Source: a virus (Duplodnaviria > Heunggongvirae > Uroviricota > Caudoviricetes). From it: DNA of 40,323 nt. Shown piece by piece: positions 1 to 19,909 of this stretch (position 1 is the stretch's first letter; every line of letters starts with the position of its first letter). A program made the translations under genes and the position numbers. Location of the stretch: IMG/VR virus record IMGVR_UViG_2695420876_000014; one strand, 5' to 3'. The notes beneath the pieces are model-generated. The model searched no databases. It had not been told where the DNA came from and saw nothing but the letters and a program-made list of their open reading frames with translations.

Positions 1-1248
1 ATGGCACTGAATATTCCATTCAGAAATGCGTACTATCGTTTTGCATCCAGTTACTCATTTCTCTTTTTTATTTCCTGGTCGCTGTGGTGGTCGTTATACG
101 CTATTTGGCTGAAAGGACATCTAGGGTTGACAGGGACGGAATTAGGTACACTTTATTCGGTCAACCAGTTTACCAGCATTCTATTTATGATGTTCTACGG
201 CATCGTTCAGGATAAACTCGGTCTGAAGAAACCGCTCATCTGGTGTATGAGTTTCATCCTGGTCTTGACCGGACCGTTTATGATTTACGTTTATGAACCG
301 TTACTGCAAAGCAATTTTTCTGTAGGTCTAATTCTGGGGGCGCTATTTTTTGGCTTGGGGTATCTGGCGGGATGCGGTTTGCTTGATAGCTTCACCGAAA
401 AAATGGCGCGAAATTTTCATTTCGAATATGGAACAGCGCGCGCCTGGGGATCTTTTGGCTATGCTATTGGCGCGTTCTTTGCCGGCATATTTTTTAGTAT
501 CAGTCCCCATATCAACTTCTGGTTGGTCTCGCTATTTGGCGCTGTATTTATGATGATCAACATGCGTTTTAAAGATAAGGATCACCAGTGCGTAGCGGCA
601 GATGCGGGAGGGGTAAAAAAAGAGGATTTTATCGCAGTTTTCAAGGATCGAAACTTCTGGGTTTTCGTCATATTTATTGTGGGGACGTGGTCTTTCTATA
701 ACATTTTTGATCAACAACTTTTTCCTGTCTTTTATGCAGGTTTATTCGAATCACACGATGTAGGAACGCGCCTGTATGGTTATCTCAACTCATTCCAGGT
801 GGTACTCGAAGCGCTGTGCATGGCGATTATTCCTTTCTTTGTGAATCGGGTAGGGCCAAAAAATGCATTACTTATCGGAGTTGTGATTATGGCGTTGCGT
901 ATCCTTTCCTGCGCGCTGTTCGTTAACCCCTGGATTATTTCATTAGTGAAGTTGTTACATGCCATTGAGGTTCCACTTTGTGTCATATCCGTCTTCAAAT
1001 ACAGCGTGGCAAACTTTGATAAGCGCCTGTCGTCGACGATCTTTCTGATTGGTTTTCAAATTGCCAGTTCGCTTGGGATTGTGCTGCTTTCAACGCCGAC
1101 TGGGATACTCTTTGACCACGCAGGCTACCAGACAGTTTTCTTCGCAATTTCGGGTATTGTCTGCCTGATGTTGCTATTTGGCATTTTCTTCTTGAGTAAA
1201 AAACGCGAGCAAATAGTTATGGAAACGCCTGTACCTTCAGCAATATAG
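1..1248 (+). CDS. cscB: sucrose:H+ symporter CscB (LacY-family MFS permease)
   Basis: 415-aa ORF with a polytopic hydrophobic profile; N-terminus MALNIPFRNAYYRFASSYSF and overall sequence recognised as the E. coli csc-regulon sucrose permease; first codon is the first base of the window. Confidence 0.93.
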   Translation: MALNIPFRNAYYRFASSYSFLFFISWSLWWSLYAIWLKGHLGLTGTELGTLYSVNQFTSILFMMFYGIVQDKLGLKKPLIWCMSFILVLTGPFMIYVYEPLLQSNFSVGLILGALFFGLGYLAGCGLLDSFTEKMARNFHFEYGTARAWGSFGYAIGAFFAGIFFSISPHINFWLVSLFGAVFMMINMRFKDKDHQCVAADAGGVKKEDFIAVFKDRNFWVFVIFIVGTWSFYNIFDQQLFPVFYAGLFESHDVGTRLYGYLNSFQVVLEALCMAIIPFFVNRVGPKNALLIGVVIMALRILSCALFVNPWIISLVKLLHAIEVPLCVISVFKYSVANFDKRLSSTIFLIGFQIASSLGIVLLSTPTGILFDHAGYQTVFFAISGIVCLMLLFGIFFLSKKREQIVMETPVPSAI

Positions 1249-13628: not shown

Positions 13629-13967
13629 ATGGACGAATCAAGAAAGCAGTTTGAAGAAAGTTGGTTGCGACGTGGAGGCGAATCCTCAGACCTTATCCGT
13701 TACCCTGAAAATCACCATGAAATTGGCAGCGGTAATATTGGTGGTCAATACGTGATGGACGATGTTCAAGGCCACTGGCAAACGTGGCAGGCATCGCGAG
13801 CAGCTATTGAACTGGATATCGACTGGCCCGAATCGAATGACAACTTTTGGAAAGGTGGCGAAGAAGGCGCTTATGCGATGGGGCATGAGGATGGGAAGGA
13901 CAAAACGGTAATTGCAGTGATGAAAGCCATCAGGGCCGCAGGAATCAAAGAAAAGAATTTCGATTAA
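13629..13967 (+). CDS. hypothetical nin-region protein
   Basis: 112-aa ORF with an SD (gagga); no family recognised. Confidence 0.5.
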   Translation: MDESRKQFEESWLRRGGESSDLIRYPENHHEIGSGNIGGQYVMDDVQGHWQTWQASRAAIELDIDWPESNDNFWKGGEEGAYAMGHEDGKDKTVIAVMKAIRAAGIKEKNFD

Positions 13968-14099
13968 GCAAATATCACTTCAATAAATCGCTTTTAAGGC
14001 ATCACAATCGCTCTGTGGTGAGGTAAGCACGTGCAAGGCATGCCGATAAGCAGCGAGAATGAAAAATGCGTCAGAATGCGTTTGAGGAGGTTTTAAGAA

Positions 14100-14315
14100 A
14101 TGAGTACGATAGCTGAGCTTGTCAGGGCTAATTTTCGTGAAGAGTTGGTGCGTTGGTATCGGTATCGTTCATCGTCCAGTTTGCCGCTTGATGAGTTGTA
14201 TGAGCATTCACCTGCCGCACGACGCTATCCGCGTGACCGTGTTCTTCGACGGTTGTTCAAACTCAACAATGAGTTTCAGCGCAACAGAATTATCCGGAGT
14301 CTGGATTTTAAGTGA
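14100..14315 (+). CDS. hypothetical small nin-region protein
   Basis: 71-aa ORF preceded by a strong SD (gaggagg). Confidence 0.5.
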   Translation: MSTIAELVRANFREELVRWYRYRSSSSLPLDELYEHSPAARRYPRDRVLRRLFKLNNEFQRNRIIRSLDFK

Positions 14316-14325
14316 AGGAGTGAGC

Positions 14326-14562
14326 ATGAGCGACCTATCATTAACCCAGCCAAAGCTAAAAGAATGTCCGTTTTGCGGCGGTAATGCTCGTCTGTGGGTT
14401 GAGGCCGGAATAAATATTGATGTGTGGGGCTATGCAGAATGTGACCTCTGTGAAGCCAGGGGGGCATGGGCACCATCAGTTGCTGCGGCGGCTGAAAAAT
14501 GGAACCGGAGAGCAGGAGATGAAGCAAACCTTTCTGCTTCGCAACGAAGCAATCAGAAATAA
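14326..14562 (+). CDS. Lar-family restriction alleviation protein (zinc-ribbon)
   Basis: Track ORF 14119..14562 trimmed to MSDLSLTQPKLKECPFCGGNARLW... (SD aaggag); the CPFCGG...C..C pattern is typical of Lar-like proteins; overlaps the ninB start by 44 nt. Confidence 0.55.
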   Translation: MSDLSLTQPKLKECPFCGGNARLWVEAGINIDVWGYAECDLCEARGAWAPSVAAAAEKWNRRAGDEANLSASQRSNQK

Positions 14563-14965
14563 CGCCATAGACGCCATTCTCTCACTACCCATCGACGACA
14601 AGTCACCCCACGAAGTCCACGTTAAAGAACCCAAGCGCAGCAAAGCGCAGAATGACCGTATGTGGCCGATGCTGAACGATGTTTCGCGTCAGGTGCTATG
14701 GCATGGTCAACGGCTGGCGCCGGAAGACTGGAAAGACCTGTTCACTGCCCTGTGGCTTAAGACCAAAAAACTGGAGCAACGAAGTGTGCCTGGTATCGAC
14801 GGTGGCGTTGTCATGCTTGGCGTGCGTACCAGCAAAATGCGGAAGGCCAGCATGACTGAGCTTATCGAAATCATGTTCTGGTTCGGCTCAGAGCGCAACG
14901 TGCGGTGGAGTGATGACTCCTGGCGAGAGTATGAATGGTCACAACGAAAAGGGAGAGCTGCATGA
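14519..14965 (+). CDS. ninB: NinB/Orf family recombination protein
   Basis: Track ORF 14417..14965 trimmed to MKQTFLLRNEAIRNNAIDAILSLP...; resembles lambda NinB (...DQNRKLWACLGDVSRQVEWHGRWL...). Confidence 0.8.
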   Translation: MKQTFLLRNEAIRNNAIDAILSLPIDDKSPHEVHVKEPKRSKAQNDRMWPMLNDVSRQVLWHGQRLAPEDWKDLFTALWLKTKKLEQRSVPGIDGGVVMLGVRTSKMRKASMTELIEIMFWFGSERNVRWSDDSWREYEWSQRKGRAA

Positions 14966-15489
14966 CTATCAAATCAAATACGCCATCACACGACAAGGAC
15001 TGCTGGCAAACGCCGCTTTGGCTTTTTGATGCACTGGATATTGAGTTTGGATTCTGGCTGGATTCGGCAGCGAGCGACAAAAATGCTCTGTGTGCTCACT
15101 GGCTAACTGAGGCCGACGACGCGCTCAATTCTGAGTGGGTAAGCCACGGTGCAATCTGGAATAACCCACCGTACAGCAATATCAGGCCGTGGGTGGAAAA
15201 AGCCGCTGAGCAGTGCATACGACAGCGACAGACGGTAGTGATGCTTGTGCCAGAGGATATGTCAGTCGGATGGTTCAGCAAGGCTCTGGAGAGTGTCGAC
15301 GAAGTTCGCATTATCACTGATGGACGGATTAATTTTATCGAACCATCGACAGGGCTGGAGAAGAAGGGAAACAGCAAAGGCTCCATGCTGCTGATTTGGC
15401 GACCGTTCATCAGTCCTCGACGGATGTTTACTACCGTATCCAAAGCGGCATTGATGGCGATCGGGCAGGGCGTCAGGAGGGCGGAATGA
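14962..15489 (+). CDS. phage DNA N6-adenine methyltransferase (Dam-like)
   Basis: Start re-assigned to [25 protein letters not shown]... (SD aagggagag; ATGA overlap with the ninB stop); contains the NPPY catalytic motif ([10 protein letters not shown]). Confidence 0.8.
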
Positions 15490-15668
15490 GGCGACAGCAA
15501 CGAAGTATCACCGACATAATCTGCGAAAACTGCAAATACCTTCCAACGAAACGCTCCAGAAATAAACGCAAGCCAATCCCAAAAGAATCTGACGTAAAAA
15601 CCTTCAACTACACGGCTCACCTGTGGGATATCCGGTGGCTTAGAGAACGTGCGAGGAAAACAAGGTGA
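15486..15668 (+). CDS. ninE: NinE
   Basis: 60-aa reading [60 protein letters not shown] recognised as lambda NinE; ATGA overlap with the methyltransferase stop. Confidence 0.8.
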
Positions 15669-15835
15669 TTGACCAAAATCGAAGTTACGAACAAGGAAGT
15701 GTCGAGCGAGCTTTAACGTGCGCTAACTGCGGTCAGAAGCTGCATGTGCTGGAAGTTCACGTGTGCTCCGATTGCTGCGCAGAACTGATGAGCGATCCGA
15801 ATAGCTCAATGTACGAGGAAGAAGACGATGAATGA
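15665..15835 (+). CDS. ninF: NinF (GTG start; below the 60-aa cutoff of the ORF track)
   Basis: Hand translation from the GTG at 15665 gives (M)[55 protein letters not shown], resembling lambda NinF. Confidence 0.7.
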
Positions 15836-16550
15836 GTTAATAAATGGCAATGCCATCAAAATGACAAGCATTGAAATCGCTGAGTTGGTGGGTAAGCGCC
15901 ATGACAATGTGAAACGTACCATAGAAACGCTGGCTAAAAATGGTGTTATCCGGCTTCCTCAAATTGAGGTTTCCGAAAGAATCAATAACTTAGGGTTCAA
16001 TGTTCAGTACGAGCATTACGTCTTCGAGGGCGAACAAGGTAAGCGAGACAGTATTGTCGTTGTTGCCCAGTTGTCGCCAGAGTTCACCGCTCGCCTTGTT
16101 GACCGCTGGCGAGATCTTGAAGAAGCTGCGGTTAATATCCCCAAAACGCTACCGGAAGCGTTGCGCCTTGCTGCCGATCTTGCTGAGCAGAAAATGCAAC
16201 TGGAAAACCAGCTCGCAATTGTCGCACCTAAAGTTGAGTTTGCCGATCGCGTTGGCGAGGCCAGCGGAATTTTGATTGGAAACTTTGCAAAGGTTGTTGG
16301 AATTGGTCCAAACAAACTGTTTGCGTGGATGCGCGATCACAAAATCCTTATTGCTTCAGGTTCCCGGCGCAATGTGCCAATGCAGGAATATATGGAGCGC
16401 GGCTATTTCACAGTGAAAGAAACAGCGGTCAACACAAATCACGGAATACAGATATCGTTCACCACAAAAATCACCGGGCGTGGTCAACAGTGGCTGACCA
16501 GAAAGCTGCTCGATAACAGAATGCTGAAAGTAACAGGGGAGGCTGCTTAA
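15828..16550 (+). CDS. Rha-N / KilAC-domain antirepressor-like protein
   Basis: 240 aa; N-terminus ...MTSIEIAELVGKRHDNVKRTIETL... matches the Rha regulatory family and the C-terminal half looks like a KilAC/ANT domain. Confidence 0.65.
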   Translation: MNELINGNAIKMTSIEIAELVGKRHDNVKRTIETLAKNGVIRLPQIEVSERINNLGFNVQYEHYVFEGEQGKRDSIVVVAQLSPEFTARLVDRWRDLEEAAVNIPKTLPEALRLAADLAEQKMQLENQLAIVAPKVEFADRVGEASGILIGNFAKVVGIGPNKLFAWMRDHKILIASGSRRNVPMQEYMERGYFTVKETAVNTNHGIQISFTTKITGRGQQWLTRKLLDNRMLKVTGEAA

Positions 16551-16840
16551 TGGCTAACCTACGCAAAGAAGCGCGCGGCAGAGAATGCCAGGTACGTATT
16601 TACGGCGTATGCAATGGCAATCCTGAAACTACAGTTCTGGCACATTACCGGATGGCTGGAATTTGCGGAACTGGAATGAAGCCTGACGACCTGATCGGCG
16701 CATGGGCTTGTAGCGCGTGTCACGATGAAATCGACCGACGCACCCATAATCTCGACAACAAAGACGCCAGACTTTATCACCTCGAAGGCGTGATCAGGAC
16801 GCAGGCGATCCTGCTGAAGGAGGGGAAGATTAAGCCATGA
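16550..16840 (+). CDS. DUF1364 (YbcO-like) putative zinc-binding nuclease
   Basis: 96 aa with conserved Cys/His (CQVRIYGVC...CSACHDEID); commonly sits upstream of rusA in lambdoid prophages. Confidence 0.65.
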   Translation: MANLRKEARGRECQVRIYGVCNGNPETTVLAHYRMAGICGTGMKPDDLIGAWACSACHDEIDRRTHNLDNKDARLYHLEGVIRTQAILLKEGKIKP

Positions 16841-17199
16841 AAGAATATCAGTTTGTGCTTCCTTACCCGCCGTCGGTGAACACCTACTGGCGAAGACGGG
16901 GAAGCCAATACTACATCAGCGATAAAGGCCAGAAATACCGAAAAGACGTTCAGCAAATCATCCGCCAACTCAAGTTAGACATTTTCACCAAATCACGACT
17001 CCGTATCAAAGTCATCGCAGACGTTCCAGACTCCCGCCGCCGCGACCTCGATAACATCCTGAAAGGTTTACTCGACTCCCTTATCCACGCCGGATTTGCG
17101 GAAGACGACGAGCAATTCGATGACATTCGCGTAATTCGTGGCGTGAAAGTACCAGGCGGAAGGCTTGGAATAAAAATCACCGAACTGGAGAACGTATGA
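16837..17199 (+). CDS. rusA: Holliday junction resolvase RusA
   Basis: 120 aa; MKEYQFVLPYPPSVNTYWRRRG... with acidic catalytic residues (RRRDLDN), typical RusA. Confidence 0.9.
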   Translation: MKEYQFVLPYPPSVNTYWRRRGSQYYISDKGQKYRKDVQQIIRQLKLDIFTKSRLRIKVIADVPDSRRRDLDNILKGLLDSLIHAGFAEDDEQFDDIRVIRGVKVPGGRLGIKITELENV

Positions 17200-17384
17200 A
17201 CGCCACAATTCAAACGATACCAGAGCTTCTTATCTAGACACGAGGCAATCAGACCGAAGTGGCAAGGATGCTTTCCTGCGCAAGAGGAACAGTGCTCAAG
17301 TACAACCGAGACAGCAAAGGCGAGCGTCACGTAATAGTTAACGGCGTCCTGATGGTCAAACAGGGCAAAAGGGGAAGGCCATGA
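17196..17384 (+). pseudogene. ninH: NinH-like HTH gene interrupted by an in-frame TAG at codon 14
   Basis: Frame from the ATG at 17196 reads MNATIQTIPELLI-stop-TRGNQTEVARMLSCARGTVLKYNRDSKGERHVIVNGVLMV...; resembles lambda NinH (...IPDMLVEAYGNQTEVARRLKCSRGTVRKY...); the TAG is at 17235-17237. Confidence 0.5.
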
Positions 17385-18004
17385 GACTCGAAAGCGTAGC
17401 TAAATTTCATTCGCCAAAAAGCCCGATGATGAGCGACTCACCACGGGCTACGGCTTCTGACTCTCTTTCCGGTACTGATGTGATGGCTGCTATGGGGATG
17501 GCGCAATCACAAGCCGGATTCGGAATGGCTGCATTCTGCGGTAAGCATGAACTCAGCCAGAACGACAAACAAAAGGCTATCAACTATCTGATGCAATTTG
17601 CACACAAGGTATCGGGGAAATACCGTGGTGTGGCAAAGCTCGAAGGAAATACTAAGGCAAAGGTACTGCAAGTGCTCGCAACATTCGCTTATGCGGATTA
17701 TTGCCGTAGTGCTGCGACGCCGGGAGCAAGATGCAGAGATTGTCACGGTACAGGCCGTGCGGTTGATATAGCCAAAACGGAGCAGTGGGGGAGAGTTGTT
17801 GAGAAAGAGTGCGGAAGATGCAAAGGCGTCGGCTATTCAAGGATGCCAGCAAGCGCCGCATATCGCGCTGTAACGATGCTAATCCCAAACCTTACTCAAC
17901 CCACCTGGTCACGCACTGTTAAGCCGCTGTATGACGCTCTGGTGGTGCAATGCCACAAGGAAGAGTCAATCGCAGACAATATTTTGAATGCGGTCACACG
18001 TTAG
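17381..18004 (+). CDS. Q: late-gene antiterminator Q (lambda type)
   Basis: 207 aa; MRLESVAKFHSPKSPMMSDSPRATASDSLSG... recognised as near-identical to lambda Q; the lambda-like pR' and qut region follows. Confidence 0.95.
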   Translation: MRLESVAKFHSPKSPMMSDSPRATASDSLSGTDVMAAMGMAQSQAGFGMAAFCGKHELSQNDKQKAINYLMQFAHKVSGKYRGVAKLEGNTKAKVLQVLATFAYADYCRSAATPGARCRDCHGTGRAVDIAKTEQWGRVVEKECGRCKGVGYSRMPASAAYRAVTMLIPNLTQPTWSRTVKPLYDALVVQCHKEESIADNILNAVTR

Positions 18005-18046
18005 CAGCATGATTGCCACGGATGGCAACATATTAACGGCATAATA

Positions 18047-18075
18047 TTGACTTTTTGAATAAAGTTGGGTAAATT
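18047..18075 (+). promoter_or_regulatory. late promoter pR' (-35 ttgact, 17-bp spacer, -10 taaatt) with the Q utilisation site just downstream
   Basis: ttgactttttgaataaagttgggtaaatttgactcaacgatggg matches my recollection of lambda pR'/qut. Confidence 0.8.
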
Positions 18076-18218
18076 TGACTCAACGATGGGTTAATTCGCT
18101 CGTTGTGGTAGTGAGATGAAAAGAGGCGGCTCTTACTCCCGATTCCGCCTAGTTGGTCACTTCGACGTATCGTCTGGAACTCCAACCATCGCAGGCTGAG
18201 AGGTCTGCAAAATGCAAT

Positions 18219-18276
18219 CCCGAAACAGTTCGCAGGTAATAGTTAGAGCCTGCATAACGGTTTCGGGATTTTTTAT
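18219..18276 (+). terminator. tR' terminator (3' end of the short 6S late transcript)
   Basis: cccgaaac...gtttcggg hairpin followed by attttttat, as in lambda tR'. Confidence 0.8.
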
Positions 18277-18691
18277 GTCTGTGCAACAGGTAAGATCATT
18301 TGTAGAGTTCGACTCTCTACCGTGGGCTTTTTCCCGCGATGCGAGCCATAAATGCTCTTTCCGTTGTGCTGAATTAAGCGAATACCGGAAGCAGAACCGG
18401 ATCACCAAATGCGTACAGGCGTCATCGCCGCCCAGCAACAGCACAACCCAAACTGAGCCGTAGCCACTGGCTATCCTGAACTCATCAGTGATAGTTATGC
18501 TGCGGCCTTCTACGCATGACCTTCGTGAAAGCGGGTGGCATGAGGCTGCGCTAACAACCTCCTGCCGTTTTGCCCGTGCATATCGGTCACGAACAAATCT
18601 GATTACTAAACACAGTAGCCTGGATTTGTTCTATCAGTAATCGACCTTATTCCTAATTAAATAGAGCAAATCCCCTTATTGGGGGTAAGAC

Positions 18692-19015
18692 ATGAAGATG
18701 CCAGAAAAACATGACCTGTTAGCCGCCATTCTCGCGGCAAAGGAACAAGGCATCGGGGCAATCCTTGCGTTTGCAATGGCGTACCTTCGCGGCAGATATA
18801 ATGGCGGTGCGTTTACAAAAACAGTAATCGACGCAACGATGTGCGCCATTATCGCCTGGTTCATTCGTGACCTTCTCGACTTCGCTGGACTAAGTAGCAA
18901 TCTCGCTTATATAACGAGCGTGTTCATCGGCTACATCGGTACTGACTCGATTGGTTCGCTTATCAAACGCTTCGCTGCTAAAAAAGCCGGAGTAGAAGAT
19001 GGTGGAAATCAGTAA
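18692..19015 (+). CDS. S: holin S (class I, dual-start MKM)
   Basis: 107 aa; [39 protein letters not shown]... recognised as lambda S. Confidence 0.95.
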
Positions 19016-19475
19016 TCAACGTAAGGCGTTCCTCGATATGCTGGCGTGGTCAGAGGGAACTGATAACGGACGTCAGAAAACCAGAAATCATGGTTATGAC
19101 GTCATTGTTGGCGGAGAGCTATTCACTGATTACTCCGATCACCCTCGCAAACTTGTCACGCTAAACCCAAAACTCAAATCAACAGCAGCCGGACGTTACC
19201 AGCTTCTTTCCCGTTGGTGGGATGCCTACCGTAAGCAGCTTGGTCTGAAAGACTTCTCTCCCAAAAGTCAGGACGCTGTGGCATTGCAGCAGATTAAAGA
19301 GCGTGGCGCTTTACCGATGATTGATCGCGGTGATATACGTCAGGCAATCGACCGTTGCAGCAATATTTGGGCTTCAATGCCTGGGGCTGGTTACGGTCAG
19401 TTCGAGCATAAGGCTGACAGCCTGATTGCAAAATTCAAAGAAGCAGGCGGAACGGTCAGAGAGATTGAGGTATGA
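18999..19475 (+). CDS. R: endolysin R (lytic transglycosylase)
   Basis: 158 aa; ...[43 protein letters not shown]... recognised as lambda R. Confidence 0.95.
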
Positions 19476-19909
19476 GCAGAGTCACCGCGATTATCTCCGC
19501 TCTGATTATCTGCATCATCGTCTGCCTGTCATGGGCTGTTAATCATTACCGTGATAACGCCATCGCCTACAAAGAGCAGCGCGATAAGGCCGCATCCATC
19601 ATCGCTGACATGCAGAAGCGTCAACGTGATGTAGCAGAACTTGACGCCAGATACACAAAGGAGCTTGCTGATGCTAACGCGACTATCGAAAGTCTCCGTG
19701 CTGATGTTTCTGCTGGTCGTAAGCGCCTGCAAGTCGCCGCCACCTGTACAAAGTCAACGACCGGAGCCAGCAGCATGGGCGATGGAGAAAGCCCAAGACT
19801 TACAGCAGATGCTGAACTCAATTATTACCGTCTCCGAAGTGGAATCGACAGGATAACCGCGCAGGTTAACTACCTGCAGGAATACATCAGGACGCAATGC
19901 CTGAAATGA
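19472..19909 (+). CDS. Rz: spanin inner-membrane subunit Rz (i-spanin)
   Basis: 145 aa; N-terminal [33 protein letters not shown] then coiled-coil; lambda-Rz-like N-terminus with a diverged C-terminus. Confidence 0.85.
19671..19856 (+). CDS. Rz1: spanin outer-membrane lipoprotein Rz1 (o-spanin), embedded in the +1 frame of Rz
   Basis: Start re-assigned to [20 protein letters not shown] (signal peptide and lipobox Cys) followed by a Pro-rich mature peptide; lies wholly inside Rz. Confidence 0.7.

What the first reader, a model, noticed from the sequence alone, without database searches (positions are those of the whole stretch)
17196..17384. ninH homologue carries an in-frame amber codon at codon 14
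The reading frame from the ATG at 17196 matches lambda NinH on both sides of a TAG at 17235-17237 (MNATIQTIPELLI, stop, TRGNQTEVARMLSCARGTVLKY...). The gene is therefore a nonsense pseudogene unless the host suppresses amber codons or translation restarts at the internal Met; the HTH begins right after the stop.
Basis: seen in the sequence. Interest (0 to 1): 0.4.

Follow-up and report, generated by a model that had tools for sequence, protein, structure and literature searches.

The report
Amber nonsense mutation in prophage ninH
A single C-to-T change has put a stop codon at codon 14 of ninH, a small dispensable DNA-bending gene of an otherwise intact E. coli prophage, so this is an ordinary, recent, rare loss-of-function allele.

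Summary
The frame from ATG 17196 to TGA 17384 is a 62-codon ninH (Pfam PF06322, 85.7 bits once codon 14 is restored). It is interrupted by TAG at 17235-17237. All intact relatives examined have CAG (Gln) there, so the lesion is one C>T transition.

It is very probably not a sequencing error. The same TAG sits in a 4.15-kb stretch (13920-18070) that is 100% identical to contigs of another genome (IMG 2579778982).

It is rare:
- 0 of 5,426 complete E. coli genomes
- 0 of 50,697 phage records
- 0 in the metagenome and GTDB scans
- 2 overlapping IMG/VR contigs, against at least 120 with CAG

ninH is the only gene in the window with a real in-frame stop, so the prophage otherwise looks intact.

A restart at GTG 17259 or ATG 17268 would remove the family's most conserved segment (TIPELL...TRGNQTEVA, the Fis-like motif), and neither codon has a well-placed Shine-Dalgarno. 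No tRNA is encoded in the window. Q downstream has its own good ribosome-binding site.

Best reading: a recent null allele of an accessory, overexpression-toxic gene, with at most trace read-through that would restore the wild-type Gln. Ordinary; low interest.

The parts
17196..17384 (+). ninH reading frame (62 codons plus stop), interrupted at codon 14
   Evidence: Translation. Pfam PF06322 at 85.7 bits for the restored protein. 98.4% identical to Kapi1 NinH across the stop.
17235..17237 (+). In-frame amber codon TAG. It derives from CAG (Gln14) by a C>T transition at 17235. The following base is A (UAG-A).
   Evidence: Alignment with mEp235, E. coli HS and HK97. 122 other full-length copies have Gln14. 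Three CAG loci differ from the window's ninH by exactly one base.
17196..17237 (+). What is actually translated from the native start: the 13-residue peptide MNATIQTIPELLI, then the stop
   Evidence: The native start has GGAG at 17187-17190, about 5 nt upstream (-6.4 kcal/mol).
17259..17384 (+). Residual 41-codon ORF from GTG 17259 (or 38 codons from ATG 17268). Possible but weak reinitiation product that lacks helix A and half of the HTH.
   Evidence: ORF list. It covers only Pfam profile positions 23-60. The SD for the GTG is 12 nt away, and the ATG has none at a usable spacing.
16837..17199 (+). rusA (Holliday-junction resolvase). Its TGA overlaps the ninH ATG (ATGA).
   Evidence: Pfam RusA. 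98.3% over 120/120 residues to Kapi1 and E212 RusA. Sequence.
17381..18004 (+). Late antiterminator Q. Its ATG overlaps the ninH TGA (ATGA). It has its own Shine-Dalgarno (AGGGG/GAAGG, 17370-17378).
   Evidence: Pfam Antiterm, 192 bits. 100% identical to Kapi1 Q. SD -7.8 kcal/mol at spacing 5, in the best 2.3% of all ATG/GTG codons in the window.
13920..18070 (+). 4,151-bp haplotype block carrying the TAG. It is 100% identical to IMG/VR contigs L004 and L005 (IMG genome 2579778982), and the flanks diverge.
   Evidence: Mismatch map and block blast. The next-closest locus in hand is about 98.5% over the part it aligns to. The best complete E. coli genome is about 97%.

Best explanation
A spontaneous C>T transition converted Gln14 (CAG) of ninH to amber (TAG). 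The gene sits in an otherwise intact P22-like/lambdoid (Lederbergvirus-type) prophage integrated beside cscB in E. coli. Ribosomes that start at ATG 17196 release a 13-residue peptide, so the Fis-like DNA-bending protein NinH is effectively not made: a null allele. Because ninH is an accessory gene, the prophage remains viable. Q, whose start overlaps the ninH stop, keeps its own ribosome-binding site and should still be expressed. The allele is real, recent and rare. It has been inherited or exchanged as part of a 4.15-kb nin-Q block shared with one other sequenced genome. Shown: the lesion, its ancestral state, its rarity, its presence in a second genome, the integrity of the other genes, and the loss of conserved residues in any restart product. 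Inferred: loss of function, neutrality or mild cost, and the unaffected Q.
For: TAG at codon 14 within a full-length NinH frame. The ancestral codon is CAG in mEp235, HS and HK97 and in 122 other full-length copies. Three intact alleles are exactly one base away, and the protein downstream of the stop equals the second commonest intact variant, so there has been no further decay. The same allele lies in a 100%-identical 4.15-kb block in IMG genome 2579778982. The allele is absent from 5,426 complete E. coli genomes and 50,697 phage records, while the CAG control 41-mer hits 39 phage records. It is absent from the GTDB and metagenome scans, whereas at least 120 viral contigs carry CAG. ninH is the only one of about 40 homologue-matched genes with a genuine in-frame stop. 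The nin region is dispensable for plaque formation (bioRxiv 10.1101/2023.05.14.540688). A ninH deletion gives small plaques and overexpression is toxic (PMC7166090). Q has its own SD. There is no + strand terminator and no significant RNA structure between the TAG and Q.
Against: No expression data exist, so low-level read-through or reinitiation cannot be excluded. The host's tRNA complement is outside the window. ninH is intact in nearly every relative, which argues that it is under purifying selection, so a null allele should carry some cost. That fits its rarity but leaves open that it is compensated in this host. It is unknown whether the second occurrence (L004/L005) is fully independent of the window's source strain.
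Confidence: 0.8

Rival explanations
1. Leaky or suppressed amber. The UAG is read through, either by a host suppressor tRNA (supE-type glnV) or at a low level by near-cognate tRNA-Gln. This yields full-length NinH at a reduced dose. Because the ancestral codon is CAG, inserting Gln restores the exact wild-type protein. The allele would then be a dose-attenuated version of a toxic gene rather than a null.
For: The ancestral residue is Gln. Position 14 is variable in the family (Q/E/K/V), so most inserted residues would be tolerated. The base after UAG is A, a context that favours suppression according to classical E. coli work (my own knowledge, not tested here). NinH overexpression is toxic (PMC7166090), which gives a conceivable advantage to attenuation.
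Against: The window has no tRNA gene. No other gene has an in-frame TAG. TAG terminates Q, cscB and two other genes normally. The stop is not conserved: it is found in one lineage only, on a block with zero divergence, so there is no evidence of long-term maintenance. Natural read-through of UAG in wild-type E. coli is typically well under a few percent (own knowledge).
Confidence: 0.1
2. Translational reinitiation. Ribosomes that terminate at 17237 restart at GTG 17259 or ATG 17268 and make a 41- or 38-residue N-terminally truncated NinH that retains activity.
For: The start codons lie 21 and 30 nt downstream of the stop, within the range of known bacterial termination-reinitiation (own knowledge). 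A GAGG lies upstream of the GTG (-5.9 kcal/mol). The recognition helix (R30, T32, K35) and the C-terminal dimerisation region would be kept.
Against: The SD for the GTG is 12 nt away, and the ATG has none at a usable spacing. The product would lack invariant T7 I8 P9 L12 G17 N18 T20 E21 and the Fis-like TRGNQT motif. N18A alone already weakens DNA binding (PMC7166090). Met25 is not conserved. The fragment covers only Pfam profile positions 23-60. No natural homologue starts there.
Confidence: 0.04
3. Sequencing or assembly error. The true base at 17235 is C and ninH is intact.
For: It is a single-base difference from many intact alleles, and the allele is absent from all complete E. coli genomes.
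Against: The identical base is present in two contigs of another genome, whose flanks differ from the window. The context ATCCAGA is neither a homopolymer nor a Dcm site. A window-specific 50-mer is absent from that other genome's viral contigs, which argues that the sources are different.
Confidence: 0.05

Closest known systems
NinH of HK97 (gp68, NP_037750), mEp235 (gp54), Kapi1 and the E. coli HS prophage (WP_000994515.1)
   Same: The 62-codon gene is the same and sits in the same position between rusA and Q, with ATGA overlaps on both sides. Nucleotide identity is 97-99%. The protein is identical except at codon 14.
   Different: Those genes have CAG (Gln) at codon 14 and are annotated as intact. 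The window has TAG.
Bacteriophage lambda NinH (P03771; Pfam PF06322), a Fis-like nucleoid-associated protein (PMC7166090)
   Same: Same family (85.7 bits). The DNA-contact residues N18, R30, T32 and K35 are conserved in the reading frame. Same ninR location upstream of Q.
   Different: About 53% identity. 62 residues against 68. The upstream neighbour is rusA rather than rap (ninG), and there is no ninI between ninH and Q. H55/R56 of lambda are K55/Q56 here. The window's copy is interrupted.
E. coli Fis (PDB 1ETY, 3IV5), C-terminal HTH
   Same: The family profile aligns to Fis residues 69-92 through the shared TRGNQT...RGT motif (E about 0.005), as published.
   Different: The match is marginal in sequence terms. 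NinH lacks the Fis N-terminal arm and dimerises differently (PMC7166090).
Classical amber mutants of lambdoid phages (such as lambda Sam7, Oam29, Pam80; own knowledge)
   Same: Same kind of lesion: a sense codon changed to UAG, suppressible in supE/supF hosts. CAG>TAG is the canonical one-step route.
   Different: Those are laboratory-selected conditional lethals in essential genes. This one is a natural allele in a non-essential gene, with no evidence of a suppressor host.

Membership tests
Phage_NinH (Pfam PF06322) | Sequence match to the family profile above the gathering threshold, over the full profile | tested here: met
   The restored 62-aa protein scores 85.7 bits against a cut-off of 29.8 and covers profile positions 1-60 of 60.
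Phage_NinH (Pfam PF06322) | Uninterrupted ORF of about 60-68 codons that encodes the whole domain | tested here: not met
   TAG at codon 14. By descent this is a member of the family, but as a pseudogene or null allele. 122 of 124 other copies are intact.
Phage_NinH (Pfam PF06322) | Location in the ninR region, after the junction-resolvase gene and upstream of Q | tested here: met
   rusA 16837-17199, ninH 17196-17384, Q 17381-18004. Same order as HK97, mEp235, Kapi1 and E212.
Phage_NinH (Pfam PF06322) | Conserved Fis-like DNA-contact residues (N18, R30, T32, K35 in lambda numbering) | tested here: met
   All four are present in the reading frame downstream of the stop. Their roles are taken from PMC7166090.
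Phage_NinH (Pfam PF06322) | Homodimeric DNA binding and bending activity | not testable with these tools
   This is a biochemical property. It is expected to be absent here because only a 13-residue peptide is made from the native start.
Programmed stop-codon read-through or suppressor-dependent gene | The in-frame stop is conserved among homologues | tested here: not met
   CAG in 122 other copies, in 39 phage records and in at least 120 viral contigs. TAG occurs only in the window and one other genome.
Programmed stop-codon read-through or suppressor-dependent gene | A suppressor tRNA encoded by the element or by the host | tested here: inconclusive
   ARAGORN finds no tRNA gene in the 40.3-kb window. 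The host genome is not available.
Internal-start (N-terminally shorter) NinH isoform | A conserved internal start codon with a ribosome-binding site, and natural homologues of that length | tested here: not met
   Position 25 is M/R/L/I/Q. The SDs are poor. Short database entries are contig-end partials or frameshift alleles.

The most novel reading that the evidence does not exclude
The amber codon is not a dead end but a dose attenuator. Near-cognate tRNA-Gln read-through of UAG-A, or a natural supE-like host allele, would produce a trickle of exactly wild-type NinH, because the ancestral codon was CAG. This would lower the burden of a protein that is toxic when overproduced while keeping some Fis-like activity during induction. 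The allele would have spread between prophages as part of the 4.15-kb nin-Q block because it is advantageous.
Probability: 0.05. Interest if true: 0.4.

Novelty: already known. Interest (0 to 1): 0.1.

Why it matters
It matters little beyond annotation. The locus should be annotated as a ninH pseudogene with an internal stop, not as two small ORFs or as a shorter NinH. It is a natural ninH-null allele in an apparently intact, probably inducible P22-like prophage. As such it could serve as a ready-made isogenic test of what NinH contributes to excision, yield or plaque size, if compared with a CAG revertant. It also shows that this accessory gene is normally kept intact, since 122 of 124 copies are.

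Tried and rejected
(1) I used the look-up of encoding contigs with the 41-aa GTG ORF and found nothing on record. With the 38-aa ATG ORF it returned 9 contigs, but in every one the gene sits at position 1-2 of the contig, so these are contig-end partial genes and not amber alleles. I rejected them as evidence.

(2) A six-frame ORF tblastn scan for in-frame stops was dominated by non-coding-frame ORFs. I replaced it with annotated CDSs of Kapi1 and E212. The tailspike 'STOP' flag there (35332) lies upstream of the real ATG at 35335 and is an alignment artefact.

(3) I first read L004 and L005 as two independent prophage contexts. One search shows that they overlap end to start by 4,434 identical bases, so I count them as one other genome.

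(4) Dcm (CCWGG) deamination hotspot: the ancestral context is TCCAGA, which is not a Dcm site.

(5) RNA structure sequestering the Q start once ninH is untranslated: the fold is no better than shuffles (z=+1.19).

(6) Intrinsic terminator between the TAG and Q: none on the + strand.

(7) Antisense ORF 16950-17330 (126 aa): it is not annotated in any relative, and the mutation is synonymous in it (CTG>CTA). There is no reason to think it is a gene.

(8) Genetic-code reassignment: TAG is the normal stop of 4 of 34 genes, including the host gene cscB.

Full report
**Observation.** The window at 17196-17384 reads ATG AAC GCC ... ATC TAG ACA CGA ... CCA TGA. It translates to MNATIQTIPELLI*TRGNQTEVARMLSCARGTVLKYNRDSKGERHVIVNGVLMVKQGKRGRP*. 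The frame is a genuine NinH on both sides of the stop. With Gln restored, the 62-residue protein matches Pfam Phage_NinH (PF06322) over profile positions 1-60 of 60 at 85.7 bits, against a cut-off of 29.8. The annotated NinH of phage Kapi1 aligns at 98.4% over 62/62 residues straight across the stop.

**What the lesion is.** I aligned 17180-17400 with phage mEp235, the E. coli HS prophage and HK97. Apart from a few silent differences, the one change that matters is T in the window against C in all three at 17235: CAG (Gln14) became TAG. Three of them differ from the window's ninH by exactly one base. Downstream of the stop, the window's frame encodes exactly the second most common intact protein variant, so no further decay has accumulated. 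The ancestral context TCCAGA is not a Dcm (CCWGG) site, so this is not a 5-methylcytosine hotspot.

**Is it real, and how common is it?**
- I queried a 41-mer centred on the T, which megablast can only seed if the T is present. It found nothing in 5,426 complete E. coli genomes or in 50,697 phage records. The CAG version of the same 41-mer found 39 phage records.
- Exact-pattern scans found no TAG allele in the GTDB species representatives or in the JGI metagenome contigs.
- IMG/VR holds two contigs with the TAG, L004 and L005, both from IMG genome 2579778982.
- The last 4,434 bases of L004 are identical to the first 4,434 of L005. They are therefore either one prophage split across two contigs or two prophages sharing a repeat. 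I count them as one additional genome.
- Window positions 13920-18070 (4,151 bp, from the nin genes to just past Q) are 100% identical to those contigs. The flanks diverge: 14 mismatches in 13799-13919 and 36 in 18071-19874.
- No other locus in hand exceeds about 98.5% over the part of this block it aligns to, and the best complete E. coli genome is about 97%.
- A window-specific 50-mer from 13840-13889 is found in 12 IMG/VR contigs, none from genome 2579778982. The window therefore probably comes from a different genome.

The TAG is thus a real, heritable but rare allele riding on a very recently shared haplotype block. A sequencing error is unlikely.

**Context.** The window is an E. coli prophage of the P22-like/lambdoid mosaic kind; its closest relatives are Kapi1, E212, CUS-3 and HK620.
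- It begins with the host sucrose permease gene cscB at 1-1248 (LacY_symp, 644 bits).
- It ends at the start codon of a tyrosine integrase at 39172-40323 on the minus strand.
- The same junction, with a TorI-type excisionase, occurs in many E. coli chromosomes.
- Around ninH the order is roi/antirepressor (15828-16550), ybcO-type nuclease (16550-16840), rusA (16837-17199), ninH (17196-17384) and Q (17381-18004). A lambda-pR'-like promoter follows at 18047-18075, then holin, endolysin and Rz.
- rusA/ninH and ninH/Q overlap by ATGA.

I used the annotated proteins of Kapi1 and E212 as tblastn queries. ninH is the only one of about 40 matched genes with a genuine in-frame stop. xis, int, cII, O, P, Q, the lysis genes, terminase, portal, scaffold, coat, the head-completion genes and the ejection genes gp14 and gp7 all align full length. 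This is not a decaying prophage, and there is no pattern of in-frame ambers that would point to a suppressor host.

**Mechanism.**

*Native start.* It has a GGAG about 5 nt upstream (-6.4 kcal/mol). Ribosomes should therefore initiate and release a 13-residue peptide at the UAG.

*Reinitiation.* GTG 17259 lies 21 nt after the stop and ATG 17268 lies 30 nt after it. The GAGG upstream of the GTG is 12 nt away. The AAGG before the ATG abuts it (-3.0 kcal/mol, no better than 42% of all ATG/GTG codons in the window).

Any such product would start at residue 22 or 25. In an alignment of 14 diverse family members, including lambda and homologues from Erwinia and Raoultella, the invariant columns are M1 T7 I8 P9 L12 G17 N18 T20 E21 V22 A23 H45 N49 L52 M53. 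Most of the conserved core would therefore be lost. Position 25 is M/R/L/I/Q, so it is not a conserved start.

The family profile hits E. coli Fis residues 69-92 through the shared TRGNQT...RGT motif (E about 0.005). That motif lies between the stop and both restart codons. Published work places the lambda NinH HTH at residues 17-38, models a preceding helix equivalent to Fis helix B, and shows that N18A already weakens DNA binding and toxicity (PMC7166090). The short NinH entries in the 5.8-billion-protein database are contig-end partials without a start Met, or singleton frameshift and truncation alleles. The exact 38-residue product occurs only at contig ends. A functional restart isoform is therefore unlikely.

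*Suppression or read-through.* The window encodes no tRNA. TAG is the ordinary stop of 4 of 34 genes, including Q and the host gene cscB. The host's tRNA genes cannot be examined. If read-through occurs, inserting Gln would recreate the wild-type protein. Position 14 is also variable in the family (Q/E/K/V), so even other insertions should be tolerated. This remains a minority possibility.

*Effect on Q.* Q has its own Shine-Dalgarno (-7.8 kcal/mol, spacing 5, within the best 2.3% in the window). The 17225-17420 RNA folds no better than shuffled sequences (z=+1.19). No + strand intrinsic terminator lies between the TAG and Q. Genes in this operon are transcribed under N-type antitermination, which suppresses Rho-dependent polarity (stated for lambda in bioRxiv 10.1101/2023.05.14.540688). 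I infer that late-gene activation is little affected.

**Consequences.** In lambda the entire nin region can be deleted without losing plaque formation. A precise ninH deletion gives small plaques, and NinH overexpression is toxic through DNA binding (PMC7166090). A null allele in a resident prophage is therefore tolerable, and perhaps mildly costly on induction. That fits an allele that is recent (zero divergence in its block) and rare, in a gene that is otherwise almost always intact.

**Comparison and novelty.** By descent this is a member of PF06322 and is identical to HK97 gp68 and E. coli WP_000994515.1 except for Q14*. It fails only the criterion of an intact ORF. It is the same kind of lesion as the classical laboratory amber mutants of lambdoid phages, but natural and in a non-essential gene. 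Nothing here is a new kind of feature, and it should be annotated as a ninH pseudogene with an internal stop. Interest is low (0.1). The most novel reading not excluded is a leaky amber that acts as a dose attenuator of a toxic Fis mimic, which I put at about 5%.

Noticed in passing
window 17233-17238: The C>T change turns TCCAGA into TCTAGA, which creates an XbaI site. XbaI is the usual enzyme for E. coli PFGE typing (own knowledge), so the allele would add a cut site. This is almost certainly coincidental.
   Followed up: partly
window 18004-18692: The Q-to-holin gap holds a lambda-pR'-like promoter (TTGACT-17-TAAATT, 18047-18075) but no tRNA genes. The close relative Kapi1 carries tRNA-Asn and tRNA-Thr in the same gap.
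   Followed up: partly
window 37431-38756 (- strand): A 441-aa ORF lies between the tailspike and the integrase. It has no Pfam hit at E<=0.01 and no counterpart in Kapi1 or E212. This is the position where P22-like phages carry lysogenic-conversion or moron genes.
   Followed up: no
window 1-1248 and 39172-40323: The window starts exactly at the ATG of the host gene cscB and ends exactly at the ATG of the prophage integrase (minus strand). It was therefore cut at gene boundaries, and the integrase-side attachment site and any target tRNA are outside it.
   Followed up: partly
ninH codons 15-25 (window about 17238-17270); loci L006-L013; proteins P0018, P0020: Nine contigs from unrelated assemblies begin at, or one base before, the ATG equivalent to 17268. 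Some database NinH proteins have unrelated N-termini joined at QTRGNQTEV or NQTEVARML. This suggests that mosaic or repeat boundaries between co-resident lambdoid prophages often fall inside ninH.
   Followed up: no
L004 5657-10090 and L005 1-4434 (IMG genome 2579778982): The two IMG/VR contigs overlap end to start by 4,434 identical bases. L005 starts within 2 bases of the point (18070/18071) where the window and L004 begin to diverge. This looks like an assembly-graph branch point, and hence possibly two prophages in that genome sharing the TAG-bearing block.
   Followed up: partly
window 16950-17330 (- strand): A 126-codon antisense ORF overlaps rusA and ninH. It is not annotated in any relative examined, and the amber mutation is synonymous in it (CTG>CTA).
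   Followed up: partly
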